Shown: positions 19,370-45,138 of the stretch, piece by piece
Layout: every line of letters starts with the position of its first letter
How positions within the stretch are numbered: position 1 is the first letter of the stretch
Assembly: GCA_009914755.4 (NCBI GenBank)
Contig: CP068257.2
Span: 41,376,001 to 41,440,000, forward strand
Reading direction: 5' to 3'
Length of the DNA stretch: 64,000 nucleotides
Origin: the human T2T-CHM13v2.0 reference genome, Homo sapiens
Notes under the pieces: model-generated
What the model saw: the letters and a program-made list of their open reading frames with translations, nothing else
The model's database searches: none
Told to the model about the DNA's origin: nothing
Translations under genes and position numbers: made by a program

Positions 19370-19476
19370 ACACCATTCGCTTTTCACCCAAGATGATTTG
19401 ATGTCTTATAAAACTCTGATGAACCATGATGGCTACACAGACATTAAGTATAGACAGCTATCAAGATGGGCAACAG
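19370..19476 (+). CDS. PKNOX1: PKNOX1 exon 2 (5'UTR 19370-19425; CDS 19426-19476, [17 protein letters not shown])
   Basis: Acceptor ttttgttctccag|ACACC preceded by a pyrimidine tract; ATGATGGCT start; donor CAG|gtgagc; the peptide matches the PKNOX1/PREP1 N-terminus and joins exon 3 in frame (phase 0). Confidence 0.9.
19393..19401 (+). promoter_or_regulatory. PKNOX1: Minimal uORF ATG-ATT-TGA in the exon 2 5'UTR, followed by out-of-frame uATGs at 19401 and 19419
   Basis: Read directly: ccaagATGATTTGATGtcttataaaactctgATGaaccATGATGGCT. The first uATG has A at -3. Confidence 0.6.
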
Positions 19477-21182
19477 GTGAGCTTGAACTTGATTCTGCAT
19501 TCTAATTACAAATCAACCTGGCACTCAAGCATGAACATTGCTTTGTATACTTGCAATTCAATTGCCATGAGGTTGCATGCTCAGTGTTAGTGTATTATGC
19601 ATTTATTGTACATTCGTGTTCAGAAAAAAAAGCCATAGAATAATACTATTTCGTTAACTGATACCAAGATTGCCAGGAATCTTGACTTCCCTAAGTCATA
19701 TGACAGTTTCTTGGGAATTTACCTTTTTAATGTCAGTGTTAATTAGCACTGTTACTTTGAAAGAAAACCCGGTTGATTTTCATGATGACAGATTCCCATG
19801 TTGACTGGTGGCTCTTCTGAGTGTCTAACTGGATCAGCTTTTGAATGGGAATCTTGTAGCCTCGTCTCCCCAGTTGTAGGCATGAGAGGGGCTGTCCCAG
19901 TAATGAATCTGCAGGGGCCCCAGTGCTCTATCTTTGTACCTTGCTCGTGCTTGGATGGTTGTGCCATACACAGGCAGCTCTCCATTGCCCTCCCACCATA
20001 GATGAGACTTTGTTCTCCTGGAAGCTGTGGTGTTTTGTGCTTTTGAGTATCTGAGTGTTTTGTGTTCTGTGACCTGAATGAATTGAGGAGCAGGTGGATC
20101 GAGACTTGGCTGAGGCCCTTGTGGTCTTTCTTGGCCTGCGATCTTGTTAAACACGGTGTTCTGAACCCACTGGCATTTGGCTCATCATCCCACTGACTCT
20201 GGAGCCAGTGAAGGGATTTGGCCCTGCCCTTTACTTTCCTGCCCAGCAGGCAGGGGCAGTGCAGTACACCCCCCTCGGCTCTCCTCCCCACCTCGAGGAC
20301 TTCGGTGGCAAGGATCAGGCTCCGGAAAACTCATTGGAGCCATGCTGGTGAGGTCTGAGGAGGGGTTAGGAGCTGAGGCGCTGGGTCCCCCTTTCCCTGG
20401 TGGTTAGTTTTACCAACCAGTCCTTGTTCAGTTCCTGTGGCAGAGATTTTTGTTGTTGGTGGTGGTGGTGTTAGTGTTTTTTTTTTCTCTGTATAGCAAT
20501 TAAAGGAGGGAGATTCTGTGATGTAGTCAGCCTGCTTCCTTAGCCTAGAAGTCCTTAGTCCTTTGGTATTTCCAATTGACTTTTTTTTTTTTTCTAAAAT
20601 GCAAATCTAATAATGTCCCGCCTGAGCTCTCCAGTGGCTCCCTGTGGATTCCTGTGGGTTTCATGCAAAGACTGAGCTGCTCTGTGGCCCGAATCGTCTG
20701 GCCCCTCTGGACCCCAGGACGCCCCCAACATCTCTGCCTGGCATATCTTGGGCACCTCTCTGCCTGCCCTGGAGCACCGGTCCTCACTGTTCCCATCACT
20801 CTTCTCCCTCCTGCCTGCCAGGTCTTTGCTCCGACCCCACTGCTGCCTCCTGTGCACCAAGGCACGGTGACCACCTCCAACACAGCCTGGTTGCTACCAG
20901 CCACCTCCTCCCAGGCAGCTGTGCCAGGTGCAGATGACACCTGGAGCACTGCCCTTTTCATACCCGAGTGTTTCCAAGGGCCTGGGAAGTGTTTAATCAG
21001 CATTATTTTAAATAAACATTGAAATATATCTACAGCGTAGACCTATCATAATTATTTTGCCATTTTTCCAAGGTTGAACATTTAGGTTTCTCTCTTTTCA
21101 CAATCATTTTTTTTTCAAATACTGAAATGAATCTTTTAAGGCTTCTTATTTTTTATTATTTATTTATTTACTTATTTATTTA

Positions 21183-21470
21183 TTTTGAGACAGAGTCTTG
21201 CTCTGTTGCCCCGGCTGGAGTGCAGTGGTGTGATCTCAGCTCACTGCAACCTCCGTCTCCCAGGTTCAAGCAATTCTCCTGTCTCAGCCTCCTGAGTACC
21301 TGGGATTACAGGTGTGTGCCACCACGCCCAGCTAATTTTTTTGTATTTTTAGTAGAGACAGGGTTTCACCATGTTGGCCAGGCTGATCTTGAACCCCTGA
21401 CCTCAGGTGATCCGCCCACCTTGGCCTCCCAAAGTGCTGGGATCACAGGCATAAGCCACTGTGCCTGGCC
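21183..21470 (-). mobile_element. Alu (antisense) preceded by a (TTTA/TTATT)-rich tail at 21148-21185
   Basis: rc Alu ending ATAAGCCACTGTGCCTGGCC. Confidence 0.9.
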
Positions 21471-22535
21471 TTTTTAAGGCTTTTTATACATGCTGGCAGA
21501 TTGCCTTACACAAATACTGTGTCCACTTAGGCTTTATTGCTTTTATTTTTTTTTTTTAAGAGAAACATAAACAGTTTTCCTAATATGTTGTACCATTTAA
21601 AGGCAGCAGAATAGAAGTCATCTTATTGCAAAAACAAGACATTGGAGGGAAGAGAGCGCAGGGCTGGAGGATGTGAGAGGCGTCCTGTGCGGGTGGGCGT
21701 TCATGGCTGGCCCCCAGTCTGTCTGGACAGTGGGGATGGCCCCGCTCCCATGAGGTCTCCCCGCCCCCGCTGCCCCAAGCTGCTTCCTCAAGGGGCAGAA
21801 GCATGGCCAAATCCACCGCGGGAGAAATGGCCCGTCCTGGTCCTGAGGAAGCTGAGGTCAGGACAGTCTAATCTGCTGCTCATGGATAACTAGAAGTTTA
21901 CTTTCACGAAATTTTGTTTTTGTAAACTGATTTTTTTTAACGATTTAAATGTTTTTTACCTAAATGACAAAGGCATTGCTTGTTTAAAGCAGTTTAAATG
22001 ATAGTATCTTTTAAGGCTTTAAGTAAACACAGCTGGCCTTTTCCTTTCTGAATGCAGTGACATTTTTATGGCTATGTATTGCTGAGGTTTGAGGGTAGAT
22101 ATGGGAGAAGTTCAACCTTGTCCCAAATATGTAGCGTATGGGTTAGGTTGTGTCTGTGACATGGTAAGAAGACCTTGGACTATTTGTCTATGCTTCTCTG
22201 ACTGTAGTATTGCTACACGTGAGGAGATATAGCAATAGACGGAGGAGTAGATTGCACGTGTGCCGTTCTCTTCATTAGGCCATCGCCAGTGTTATTTTAA
22301 AATCATGAGCATTTCACAGACATTGGTTATCTCAGTTCTTAAGCAGTTTGGAAATTTTACCTTTATTTTAAAGCACATTAAATTCAAAGCTGTTTTGTTG
22401 GTAGCATTCTTTACATATGATTGCAGTCATACTGCTGTCTGGCAATTCCCCACTCCAACTGCATTCCTGTTGGAGCATGGAATACCTCGTAGTAGTTTGT
22501 GTTTGCTAATAAGAATTATCTTCCTCCTTTTACAG

Positions 22536-22663
22536 ATGCAAGTAGTAACAGAGTTAAAGACAGAACAAGATCCAAACTGCTCTGAACCCGATGCAGAAGG
22601 AGTGAGCCCTCCCCCTGTGGAGTCTCAGACCCCGATGGATGTGGACAAGCAGGCCATTTATAG
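22536..22663 (+). CDS. PKNOX1: PKNOX1 exon 3 (MQVVTELKTEQDPNCSEPDAEGVSPPPVESQTPMDVDKQAIY + AG of R)
   Basis: Acceptor ttttacag|ATGCAA; donor TATAG|gtagtg; 128 nt ending in phase 2; continuous with exons 2 and 4. Confidence 0.9.
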
Positions 22664-22825
22664 GTAGTGCCCGGGGTGCCGGCTGTGGGGGCCTCAGAGG
22701 AGTGAGGAGTGTCCACAAGTTTGTTAAAAGGAACACCAGAACTAGTAGCGAGGCAGAGTTGTGAGGTGCCATTATGATGTGATAACTGCTCGGCTGAAAA
22801 TTTTCTCAGATTAAGATGTTATTTC

Positions 22826-43741: not shown

Positions 43742-43914
43742 GTTCATCAATGCCAGAAGACGAATTCTTCAGCCAATGTTGGATTCAAGTTGTTCAGAGA
43801 CCCCCAAAACAAAGAAAAAAACTGCTCAGAACCGGCCAGTTCAGAGGTTTTGGCCTGATTCTATTGCATCAGGAGTCGCACAGCCACCGCCGAGCGAGCT
43901 CACCATGTCGGAAG
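43742..43914 (+). CDS. PKNOX1: PKNOX1 exon 10 (…W FINARRRILQPMLDSSCSETPKTKKKTAQNRPVQRFWPDSIASGVAQPPPSELTMSE + G; homeodomain helix 3 WFINARRR)
   Basis: Acceptor ttgttgactccag|GTTCATC; donor GAAG|gtacag; 173 nt. Confidence 0.9.
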
Positions 43915-44464
43915 GTACAGGTGGCCGGCCAAGGCCAGACATGGTGGACCATGGGGTGGGGATTATGAACAAGAGGCCTGGATCAGGCCTGTTAGCTGTG
44001 AGCCTCAGGTAATGTGGTGAACGAGAGTGCGTGGTTCTCTTTCTCTGCAACTAAAACATGAGGAAGCTGCATTCTGCGTGCACGGGAGCTCTCAGTAAGA
44101 GTTAGGAGCACCAGTAGTAGAGAATGTAAAACACGTGATAGAGATATGAAATCATTAATTCTGTCTCAAAGACACAGTCATGCCCATGGATCTTCTCCTT
44201 TGCTTCTGTGTTTGCTCTCCTTTTCCCTCCGACGCCGGGTGTGGAGGAGGGACTTACCCCGTTCTCACCACGTGGCTTCTTTCTCTTCATCCCCCATGCC
44301 CTTCTCTTGTTTTTGCTTATTCCCTGTGGCCTCTGCTCTCCATCCCCTGACGTAGGCAGCCATTCTGATGTGTTTTATAGGCATCTTTCTGTTCGCATGA
44401 GGTCTTCATATTTTGGATGGTTTTGTGTGCATGTGTTTTTATTTTTTTTTATTTGTTTGCTTTG

Positions 44465-44766
44465 TTTTTTTTTTTTTTTTTTGAGACAGAGTCTCACTCT
44501 GTTGCCCAGGCTGGAGTGCAATGGCGCAATCTCGGCTCACTGAAACCTCTGCCTACCAGGTTCCCGCCATTCTCCTGCCTCAGCCTCCCGAGTAGCTGGG
44601 AGTAGCTACAGGTGCCTGCCACCACGCCCGGCTAATTTTTTGTATTTTTAGTAGAGACGGGGTTTCACCGTGTTCACCAGGATGGTCTTGATCTCCTGAC
44701 CTCGTTATCCGCCTGCCTCAGCCTCCCAAAGTGCTGGGATTACAGGCATGAGCTACCGCGCCCGGC
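44465..44766 (-). mobile_element. AluY-like (antisense), ~160 bp upstream of the last-exon acceptor
   Basis: Poly-T(18) GAGACAGAGTCTCACTCTGTTGCCCAGGCTGGAGTGCAATGGCGCAATCTCGGCTCACTG… ends GCATGAGCTACCGCGCCCGGCC. Confidence 0.9.
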
Positions 44767-44926
44767 CCAGAAACAGTTTCTTAAATCCCTGTTGAACATT
44801 CCCTAAACATATATAGGTGTTTTATTTTAACTTTAGGTCAAACAAGCAAACAGCACCCAATTGAGTAATAAAGTGTTTTTCTGTGAGTACTAATTTAAAT
44901 AATGACACACCTTCATCCTGCCGCAG

Positions 44927-45138
44927 GAGCTGTTGTCACCATCACCACGCCCGTGAACATGAACGTGGACAGCCTTCAGTCTCTGTCCTCGGACGGGGCC
45001 ACCCTGGCGGTGCAGCAGGTCATGATGGCAGGGCAGAGCGAGGACGAGTCTGTGGACAGCACAGAGGAGGATGCGGGTGCCCTGGCCCCTGCCCACATCA
45101 GCGGGCTGGTCTTGGAGAACAGTGACTCCCTGCAGTAG
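44927..45138 (+). CDS. PKNOX1: PKNOX1 exon 11 coding part (GA + AVVTITTPVNMNVDSLQSLSSDGATLAVQQVMMAGQSEDESVDSTEEDAGALAPAHISGLVLENSDSLQ, stop TAG 45136-45138)
   Basis: Acceptor cctgccgcag|GAGCTG; an in-frame TAG closes a 436-codon ORF assembled from the ten exons. Confidence 0.92.

What the first reader, a model, noticed from the sequence alone, without database searches (positions are those of the whole stretch)
19370..45138. The window carries the entire coding region of the TALE homeobox gene PKNOX1 (PREP1): ten GT-AG exons giving a 436-aa ORF
Ten + strand exons are joined at canonical splice sites. Every exon phase closes (exon lengths 107, 128, 172, 171, 100, 98, 129, 77, 173 and 212+ nt). 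The translation reproduces the PKNOX1 protein as I recall it: the N-terminus [17 protein letters not shown], the MEIS-homology motifs HPLFPLLALLFEKCE and LLELEKVNELCKDF, and the TALE homeodomain …[57 protein letters not shown]. This anchors the window as a well-known vertebrate gene locus rather than a novel system. It also explains why none of the provided ORF-track entries is a real gene: exons are short and split, while the track is dominated by repeat translations. Exon 1 (non-coding) and the promoter are not in the window.
Basis: partly seen in the sequence, partly recalled or inferred. Interest (0 to 1): 0.5.

Follow-up and report, generated by a model that had tools for sequence, protein, structure and literature searches.

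The report
PKNOX1 (PREP1) homeobox gene, coding exons

Summary
Confirmed. The 436-aa product is identical, residue for residue, to NP_004562.2 / PKNX1_HUMAN. It carries the Meis_PKNOX_N and TALE Homeobox_KN domains, and its homeodomain matches PDB 1x2n. The best 120 database hits are all PKNOX1, none PKNOX2 or MEIS.

All ten exons and their splice sites are conserved in nine monkey loci. In the eight scored, 25-49 CDS differences cause no amino-acid change. Four orthologous assembled mRNAs align in exactly ten blocks across all nine junctions. One shows the untranslated exon 1 spliced onto the base homologous to 19370.

Exon 1 and the promoter are not in the window: no CpG island, published human promoter primers absent, conserved exon-1 motif absent. 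The last exon continues as a 3'UTR of about 3.5 kb, to ATTAAA at 48609.

Caveats:
- The protein is shared by 14 simian taxa. DNA distances say a hominoid that is not orangutan; human is likely but not proven here.
- "ORF track dominated by repeats" is only partly true.

Already known; low interest.

The parts
19370..19476 (+). First exon in the window (gene exon 2): 56 nt of 5'UTR, then ATG at 19426; codes aa 1-17
   Evidence: AG acceptor with pyrimidine tract and GT donor. Acceptor conserved in 9 monkey loci. mRNA L022 has GC-rich exon 1 spliced onto the homologous base. In-frame stops upstream of the ATG.
19393..19401 (+). Minimal upstream ORF ATG-ATT-TGA in the 5'UTR part of the exon
   Evidence: Present in the window. 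ATGAT[T/C]TGA is conserved in the two monkey loci examined (L008, L004) and in four non-primate mRNAs. No function was tested.
22536..22663 (+). Coding exon, aa 18-60
25113..25284 (+). Coding exon, aa 60-117; holds the HPLFPLLALLFEKCE motif (aa 61-75), the first MEINOX block
28127..28297 (+). Coding exon, aa 118-174; holds the LLELEKVNELCKDF motif (aa 129-142), the second MEINOX block
31967..32066 (+). Coding exon, aa 175-208
33194..33291 (+). Coding exon, aa 208-240
36342..36470 (+). Coding exon, aa 241-283; N-terminal arm and helix 1 of the homeodomain (…KRGVLPKHATNVMRSWLFQHIG)
39910..39986 (+). Coding exon, aa 284-309; the TALE loop extension P-Y-P (aa 285-287) and helix 2
43742..43914 (+). 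Coding exon, aa 309-367; recognition helix WFINARRR (aa 309-316)
44927..45138 (+). Coding part of the last exon, aa 367-436; stop codon TAG at 45136-45138
45139..48640 (+). 3'UTR, continuous with the last coding exon, about 3.5 kb; the exact end is inferred
   Evidence: Orthologous mRNAs align colinearly from 44925 to about 46300, and again at 46464-46896, 47795-48145 and 48465-48596. The only non-exonic blocks at least 95% identical in the two most distant monkey loci are 45200-45499, 45650-45849 and 48500-48699. An Alu sits at 46893-47161.
48609..48614 (+). Probable poly(A) signal ATTAAA
   Evidence: No AATAAA occurs between the stop codon and 50765, and this is the first ATTAAA. It lies in a conservation peak. 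mRNA contig L023 ends at the position homologous to 48596. The cleavage site itself was not observed.
1..19369 (+). 3' part of intron 1; no exon 1 and no promoter
   Evidence: No CpG island anywhere in the window. Seven published human PREP1 promoter, exon-1 and intron-1 primers are absent at up to 3 mismatches. The conserved exon-1 motif is absent. The upstream part of L020 has no significant match.

Best explanation
Window 19370-48640 (+ strand) is the body of the protein-coding gene PKNOX1 (PREP1) of a hominoid genome, most probably human. It holds the 3' part of intron 1, the ten coding exons (gene exons 2-11) and the 3'UTR.

Shown here: the gene is transcribed left to right and spliced at nine GT-AG introns, and it encodes the 436-aa TALE-class homeodomain protein PKNOX1.

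From the literature, not tested here: the N-terminal MEINOX region (Pfam Meis_PKNOX_N, aa 51-157, exons 22536-28297) is the surface through which PREP1 dimerises with PBX proteins. The homeodomain (about aa 259-321, split over exons 36342-36470, 39910-39986 and 43742-43914, with the three-residue P-Y-P loop extension) binds DNA. [quoted passage not shown]

The promoter and the untranslated exon 1 lie upstream of the window.
For: - The joined ORF is identical to NP_004562.2 / PKNX1_HUMAN.
- Pfam: Meis_PKNOX_N at 5.8e-51 and Homeobox_KN at 1.8e-20, both far above their curated cut-offs.
- PDB 1x2n 'Homeobox protein PKNOX1' matches aa 257-320 with the native residues identical.
- The best 120 of 2715 homologues are all named PKNOX1.
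- Nine monkey loci keep every splice site; exon lengths are identical apart from a 9-nt indel in the non-coding part of the first exon in L005. In the eight loci scored, 25-49 CDS differences give 0 amino-acid changes, and all but two lie at third codon positions.
- Exons are more conserved than their flanks in nearly all comparisons.
- Four assembled orthologous mRNAs align in exactly ten blocks. Two of them (L020, L021) match the joined model without gaps at 90% identity across all nine junctions.
- An exon 1 to exon 2 junction is seen at the base homologous to 19370 in L022.
- Exon 1 and the promoter are absent, in line with the published gene structure: untranslated exon 1, ATG in exon 2, CpG-rich TSS (PMC3008670).
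- The window is colinear over about 45 kb with the PKNOX1 loci of other primates.
Against: Nothing contradicts the gene identification. The limits are:
- The species is not fixed. No human, chimpanzee or gorilla DNA could be retrieved, and two metagenome scans found nothing.
- The RNA evidence comes from orthologues, not from the window's own species.
- The poly(A) site is inferred, not observed.
- PBX binding and DNA binding are taken from the literature.
Confidence: 0.97

Rival explanations
1. The locus is PKNOX1, but from a non-human ape (chimpanzee, bonobo, gorilla or, less likely, a gibbon), not from human.
For: The 436-aa protein is identical in 14 simian taxa. My DNA comparisons only exclude the Old and New World monkeys retrieved and the orangutan-like L017, which shows 96.4% substitution identity. 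No human or African-ape DNA was available for comparison.
Against: This rests on prior expectation only. The distance to L017 is about what I expect for human or African apes versus orangutan (my own knowledge), which argues against a gibbon.
Confidence: 0.1
2. The exons belong to a paralogue (PKNOX2, MEIS1-3) and were mis-assigned.
For: None beyond the shared family domains: MEIS1 and MEIS2 homeodomains score about 100 bits in PDB.
Against: Full-length identity to PKNOX1. The PKNOX1 homeodomain scores 131 bits, against 100 bits or less for MEIS. The best 120 hits are all PKNOX1.
Confidence: 0.002
3. It is a non-functional duplicated copy or pseudogene of PKNOX1, not the working gene.
For: None.
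Against: The copy contains introns. The ORF is intact. All splice sites are canonical and conserved, and only synonymous differences separate it from the eight monkey loci scored. It is colinear with the single PKNOX1 locus found in each primate assembly.
Confidence: 0.01

Closest known systems
Human PKNOX1 / PREP1 (NP_004562.2, UniProt PKNX1_HUMAN)
   Same: The 436-aa product is identical over its whole length. The gene layout is the same: untranslated exon 1 outside the window and the ATG in exon 2 (PMC3008670). The domain content is the same, and the homeodomain is identical to PDB 1x2n across the native residues.
   Different: Nothing differs at protein level. Only the species assignment is unproven, because the same protein exists in 13 other simian taxa.
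PKNOX1 loci of other primates (L001-L009, L017)
   Same: Same ten exons and splice sites, the same exon lengths apart from a 9-nt indel in the non-coding part of the first exon in L005, and the same protein. Colinear over about 45 kb.
   Different: About 9% (Old World monkey-like), about 15% (two more distant loci) and 3.6% (L017) nucleotide divergence. The window's last intron is 1012 nt, against 3.0-4.1 kb in the monkey loci measured, because of an Alu-Alu recombination deletion; L017 retains the extra segment.
MEIS1/MEIS2 and PKNOX2 (the other MEINOX TALE homeobox genes)
   Same: Same two-domain architecture: a MEIS/PKNOX N-terminal domain plus a TALE homeodomain. MEIS homeodomains align across aa 263-325.
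   Different: Clearly lower similarity: 100 bits or less against 131 bits for the homeodomain. None appears among the best 120 full-length hits.

Membership tests
PKNOX1 orthologue group | Full-length protein identity or near-identity to reference PKNOX1 | tested here: met
   The exact-sequence look-up returns NP_004562.2 'homeobox protein PKNOX1 isoform 1 [Homo sapiens]' and PKNX1_HUMAN.
PKNOX1 orthologue group | Closer to PKNOX1 than to PKNOX2 or MEIS1-3 | tested here: met
   The best 120 hits, from mammals to sharks, are all named PKNOX1. PDB: PKNOX1 homeodomain 131 bits, MEIS 100 bits or less.
PKNOX1 orthologue group | Orthologous genomic position (human chr21q22.3, neighbours such as CBS) | not testable with these tools
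   No annotated human genome was available. Partial support: colinear with the PKNOX1 locus of ten primate assemblies. No CBS coding sequence lies within the 18.9 kb downstream of the stop codon.
TALE-class (MEINOX) homeodomain proteins | Homeodomain with a three-amino-acid loop extension between helices 1 and 2 | tested here: met
   Pfam Homeobox_KN matched 1-40/40 at 72.9 bits against a cut-off of 24. P-Y-P at aa 285-287. Identical to the solved PKNOX1 homeodomain 1x2n across the native residues.
TALE-class (MEINOX) homeodomain proteins | N-terminal MEIS/PKNOX (MEINOX) domain | tested here: met
   Pfam Meis_PKNOX_N, aa 51-157, profile 2-116/116, 172 bits against a cut-off of 27.
TALE-class (MEINOX) homeodomain proteins | Dimerisation with PBX and sequence-specific DNA binding | not testable with these tools
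Functional spliced vertebrate gene (as opposed to a processed or decayed copy) | Canonical introns, an intact ORF under purifying selection, and junctions seen in RNA | tested here: met
   Nine GT-AG introns. 25-49 CDS differences with 0 amino-acid changes in the eight monkey loci scored. All nine junctions are present in orthologous mRNAs. RNA from the window's own species could not be retrieved.

The most novel reading that the evidence does not exclude
The most novel reading left open concerns an intronic side observation, not the gene's identity. The last intron lost about 2.4-2.7 kb through Alu-Alu recombination after the split from the orangutan lineage. That deletion could be specific to humans or to African apes, and could have removed regulatory sequence affecting PKNOX1 3'-end processing or expression. 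Separately, the in-frame 327-nt exon block 31967-36470 might be back-spliced into a circular RNA, as the exon repetition in mRNA contig L022 hints.
Probability: 0.07. Interest if true: 0.25.

Novelty: already known. Interest (0 to 1): 0.05.

Why it matters
It anchors the window. This is vertebrate (hominoid) nuclear DNA from a thoroughly studied gene, so other observations in the same window should be read against a mammalian intron and Alu background, not as candidate novel prokaryotic or viral systems. This applies to mechanical ORFs, SRP-RNA-like hits, minisatellites and GC-rich stretches. PKNOX1 itself matters biologically: it is a PBX/HOX cofactor, essential in mouse development, a haploinsufficient tumour suppressor, and lies in the Down-syndrome region (PMC3008670, PMC2887940). 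Nothing here adds to that knowledge.

Tried and rejected
- Brute-force chaining of AG...GT segments with the stated lengths and an open frame timed out. Length and splice sites alone are not unique, so I switched to homology anchoring.
- My first mapping of exons onto the monkey loci ignored indels in the intron flanks and gave spurious frameshifts. I redid it column by column, and one search should be disregarded.
- Getting human or African-ape DNA through the look-up of encoding contigs failed. Only the ten longest loci are shown, and all are monkeys plus one orangutan-like locus.
- Two metagenome scans for contaminant contigs, one with a 3'UTR 41-mer and one with a homeobox-exon 38-mer, found nothing.
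- L020 and L021 at first looked like evidence for the exon 1/exon 2 junction. Their upstream sequence is AT-rich, CpG-poor and ends in a pyrimidine tract plus cag, so it is retained intron. They support only a conserved acceptor.
- CBS as a downstream neighbour inside the window: no tblastn hit (the query was recalled from memory, so this is a weak negative).
- Rfam found only three Metazoa_SRP matches just at threshold, and all three overlap or abut Alu elements.
- A literature search for a reported Alu-mediated deletion in PKNOX1 found no paper.
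Full report
**1. The observation**

A blind search for AG...GT segments of the stated lengths with an open frame exploded combinatorially, so splice sites and lengths alone do not define a unique model. I located coding segments with tblastn, using a PKNOX1 sequence recalled from memory as a lead only. 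I then looked for AG/GT-bounded segments of the stated lengths near each hit.

The resulting chain is 19370-19476, 22536-22663, 25113-25284, 28127-28297, 31967-32066, 33194-33291, 36342-36470, 39910-39986, 43742-43914 and 44927-45138.

- Each acceptor has a pyrimidine tract and each donor starts with GT.
- The joined CDS runs from ATG 19426 to TAG 45136-45138: 1308 nt plus the stop, 436 aa.
- In-frame stops lie upstream of the ATG.

**2. Independent identification**

- An exact-sequence look-up among about 15 billion proteins finds the product as NP_004562.2 "homeobox protein PKNOX1 isoform 1 [Homo sapiens]" and UniRef PKNX1_HUMAN. The same sequence is shared by 14 Simiiformes taxa.
- Pfam gives Meis_PKNOX_N (aa 51-157, 5.8e-51, 172 bits against a cut-off of 27) and Homeobox_KN (aa 277-316, 1.8e-20, the whole 40-position profile).
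- The best solved structure is 1x2n "Homeobox protein PKNOX1", identical across the native homeodomain residues at 131 bits. MEIS1 and MEIS2 homeodomains score 100 bits or less.
- In a search of 5.8 billion proteins, the best 120 hits, from mammals to sharks, are all named PKNOX1. No PKNOX2 or MEIS protein is among them.

**3. Evolutionary test of the exon model**

The look-up of encoding contigs returned the PKNOX1 loci of nine monkey assemblies (L001-L009).

- In all nine, the ten exons map with AG/GT at every boundary. Exon lengths are identical, apart from a 9-nt indel in the non-coding part of the first exon in L005, which also kept that locus from being scored for CDS differences.
- In the other eight loci, the CDS differs from the window at 25-49 positions. 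None changes an amino acid, and all but two lie at third codon positions. An earlier attempt was flawed by indels in the flanks and should be ignored.
- In nearly all comparisons, exons are more similar than their 200-nt intron flanks, for example 0.97-0.99 against 0.84-0.93.

This is the signature of a correctly framed gene under purifying selection.

**4. RNA-level test**

Three database hits sat on contigs of only 2.7-5.4 kb. Fetching them gave four contigs (L020-L023) in which the coding sequence is uninterrupted, so they are assembled mRNAs of non-primate orthologues.

- Each aligns to the window in exactly ten blocks.
- L020 and L021 match the joined model without any gap at 90% identity, with 25-30 of 30 bases matching across each of the nine junctions.
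- The untranslated 5' edge at 19370 cannot be verified from the protein. In L020 and L021 the upstream sequence is AT-rich and CpG-poor and ends in a pyrimidine tract plus cag. It is therefore retained intron, and shows only that the acceptor is conserved.
- In L022 the 91 nt upstream are 67% GC with 11 CpGs. They contain GCTTGTCAGTG and TGACGGTTGGACGCG, the PBX-PREP1 site (in full) and 15 of the 16 bases of the PBX-HOX site that PMC3008670 Table 2 lists for the human gene. They are joined directly to ACACC..., the base homologous to 19370. That is an observed exon 1 to exon 2 junction at the predicted position, although in an orthologue.

**5. What is not in the window**

PMC3008670 reports that human PREP1 has an untranslated first exon, the ATG in exon 2 and a TATA-less, CpG-rich start region.

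- The window has no CpG island at all (GC at least 0.55 and observed/expected at least 0.65 over 500 nt). CpG observed/expected is 0.14-0.46 throughout.
- None of that paper's seven human promoter, exon-1 or intron-1 primers occurs, even with 3 mismatches.
- The conserved exon-1 motif is absent.

**6. The 3' end**

The last exon does not stop at 45138.

- Orthologous mRNAs continue colinearly to about 46300, and again at 46464-46896, 47795-48145 and 48465-48596.
- The only non-exonic 200-nt blocks at least 95% identical in the two most distant monkey loci (median 84%) are 45200-45499, 45650-45849 and 48500-48699.
- There is no AATAAA between the stop codon and 50765. The first ATTAAA, at 48609, lies in the last conserved block.
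- The L023 contig ends at the position homologous to 48596.

I infer a 3'UTR of about 3.5 kb that ends shortly after 48614. The cleavage site itself was not observed.

**7. Species**

- Gapped identity is about 90.5% to seven Old World monkey-like loci and about 85% to two more distant loci. Substitution identity is 0.91 and 0.85.
- Substitution identity to L017 is 96.4%. L017 is from assembly GCA_028885625.3, an orangutan by my recollection, and Pongo pygmaeus is named among the holders of the exact protein.
- The window is therefore none of these. It sits about where human or an African ape would.
- No human, chimpanzee or gorilla DNA could be obtained, and two metagenome scans were empty.

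Human is the likeliest source on prior grounds, but it is not demonstrated here.

**8. How it works**

Shown here: a spliced gene encoding a two-domain TALE homeoprotein.

- The MEINOX region is encoded by exons 22536-28297.
- The homeodomain is split by introns after ...QHIG (aa 283) and within the Trp309 codon.
- The P-Y-P loop extension is at aa 285-287, and the recognition helix WFINARRR is at aa 309-316.

From the literature, not tested here: PREP1 dimerises with PBX proteins, the dimers bind DNA, and they form ternary complexes with anterior HOX proteins to drive genes such as Hoxb1, Hoxb2, Hoxa2 and Hoxa3. The mouse gene is essential and is a haploinsufficient tumour suppressor (PMC3008670). 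The gene maps to the Down-syndrome region of chromosome 21 (PMC2887940 abstract).

**9. The ORF-track remark**

- None of the ten longest mechanical ORFs (160-278 aa) hits Pfam, and exons make up only 5.3% of 19370-45138.
- Only 9 of the 41 ORFs of at least 110 aa overlap Alu by 30% or more. The others are chance ORFs, many of them in GC-rich stretches.
- One ORF (22260-22667) contains the 22536-22663 exon in frame.

**10. Verdict**

This is an already known gene, and its main value is to anchor the window as hominoid nuclear DNA.

Noticed in passing
window 43915-44926 (last intron); Alu at 44467-44745; L017 27647-30051; L008 last intron 35000-39023: The last PKNOX1 intron is 1012 nt in the window but 3.0-4.1 kb in the monkey loci measured, and the orangutan-like L017 carries about 2.4 kb of extra sequence there. 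The window's single Alu is a chimera. Its left flank and 5' part match L017's left Alu. Its 3' part (from about 44645) and right flank match L017's right Alu, with only that Alu's target-site duplication CAGAAACAGTTTCTT. This is the signature of an Alu recombination-mediated deletion after the orangutan split. No exon is affected, and no paper linking it to PKNOX1 was found.
   Followed up: partly
L022 cDNA 668-1324; window exons 31967-32066, 33194-33291, 36342-36470: mRNA contig L022 (ENA ERZ13405087) repeats these three exons in tandem. It has an exact exon-exon junction joining the homologue of 36470 to that of 31967, which gives a 545-aa ORF (the block is 327 nt, in frame). This could be a back-splice (circular RNA) assembled into a linear contig, an assembly loop, or a real duplication in that species.
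   Followed up: partly
window 19393-19401: A minimal upstream ORF (ATG ATT TGA, Met-Ile-stop) lies 25 nt before the main ATG. It is conserved as ATGAT[T/C]TGA in the two monkey loci examined and in four non-primate mRNAs. A second upstream ATG at 19401 (out of frame, 41 codons) is not conserved in L020 or L021.
   Followed up: partly
whole window; for example 19001-19117, 25778-25925, 27338-27454: About 48 Alu-like intervals total about 14 kb, 22% of the window. The only three Rfam gathering-level hits (Metazoa_SRP, 70-73 bits against a cut-off of 70) overlap or abut Alu elements and are not SRP RNA genes.
   Followed up: yes
window 1731-1953, 5618-5841, 17383-17508, 53072-53210; 23109-23152; about 45300-45335: Several repeats: minisatellites (55-nt unit x4 at 97% match; 21-nt unit x10.7; 27-nt unit x4.7; 71-nt unit x2), a perfect (CA)22 in the second in-window intron, and an interrupted (GT)n run in the 3'UTR. 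All are likely to be length-polymorphic.
   Followed up: no
window 52000-64000: The region downstream of the gene is GC-rich (0.55-0.59) but CpG-depleted (observed/expected 0.28-0.37). It has no CpG island. It has many chance ORFs of 110-200 aa, and the four longest there have no Pfam match. No CBS-like coding sequence was found, and no feature was identified.
   Followed up: partly
window 36586-37422 (- strand), intron after exon 36342-36470: The longest mechanical ORF in the window (278 aa) lies antisense in a GC-rich stretch of this intron, together with three overlapping ORFs. It has no Pfam match and looks like a compositional artefact.
   Followed up: partly
window about 29917-29966; L017 11521-12768: L017 carries about 1.2 kb in the intron between exons 28127-28297 and 31967-32066 that the window lacks. 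This is an insertion in that lineage or a deletion in the window's lineage, and it was not characterised.
   Followed up: no
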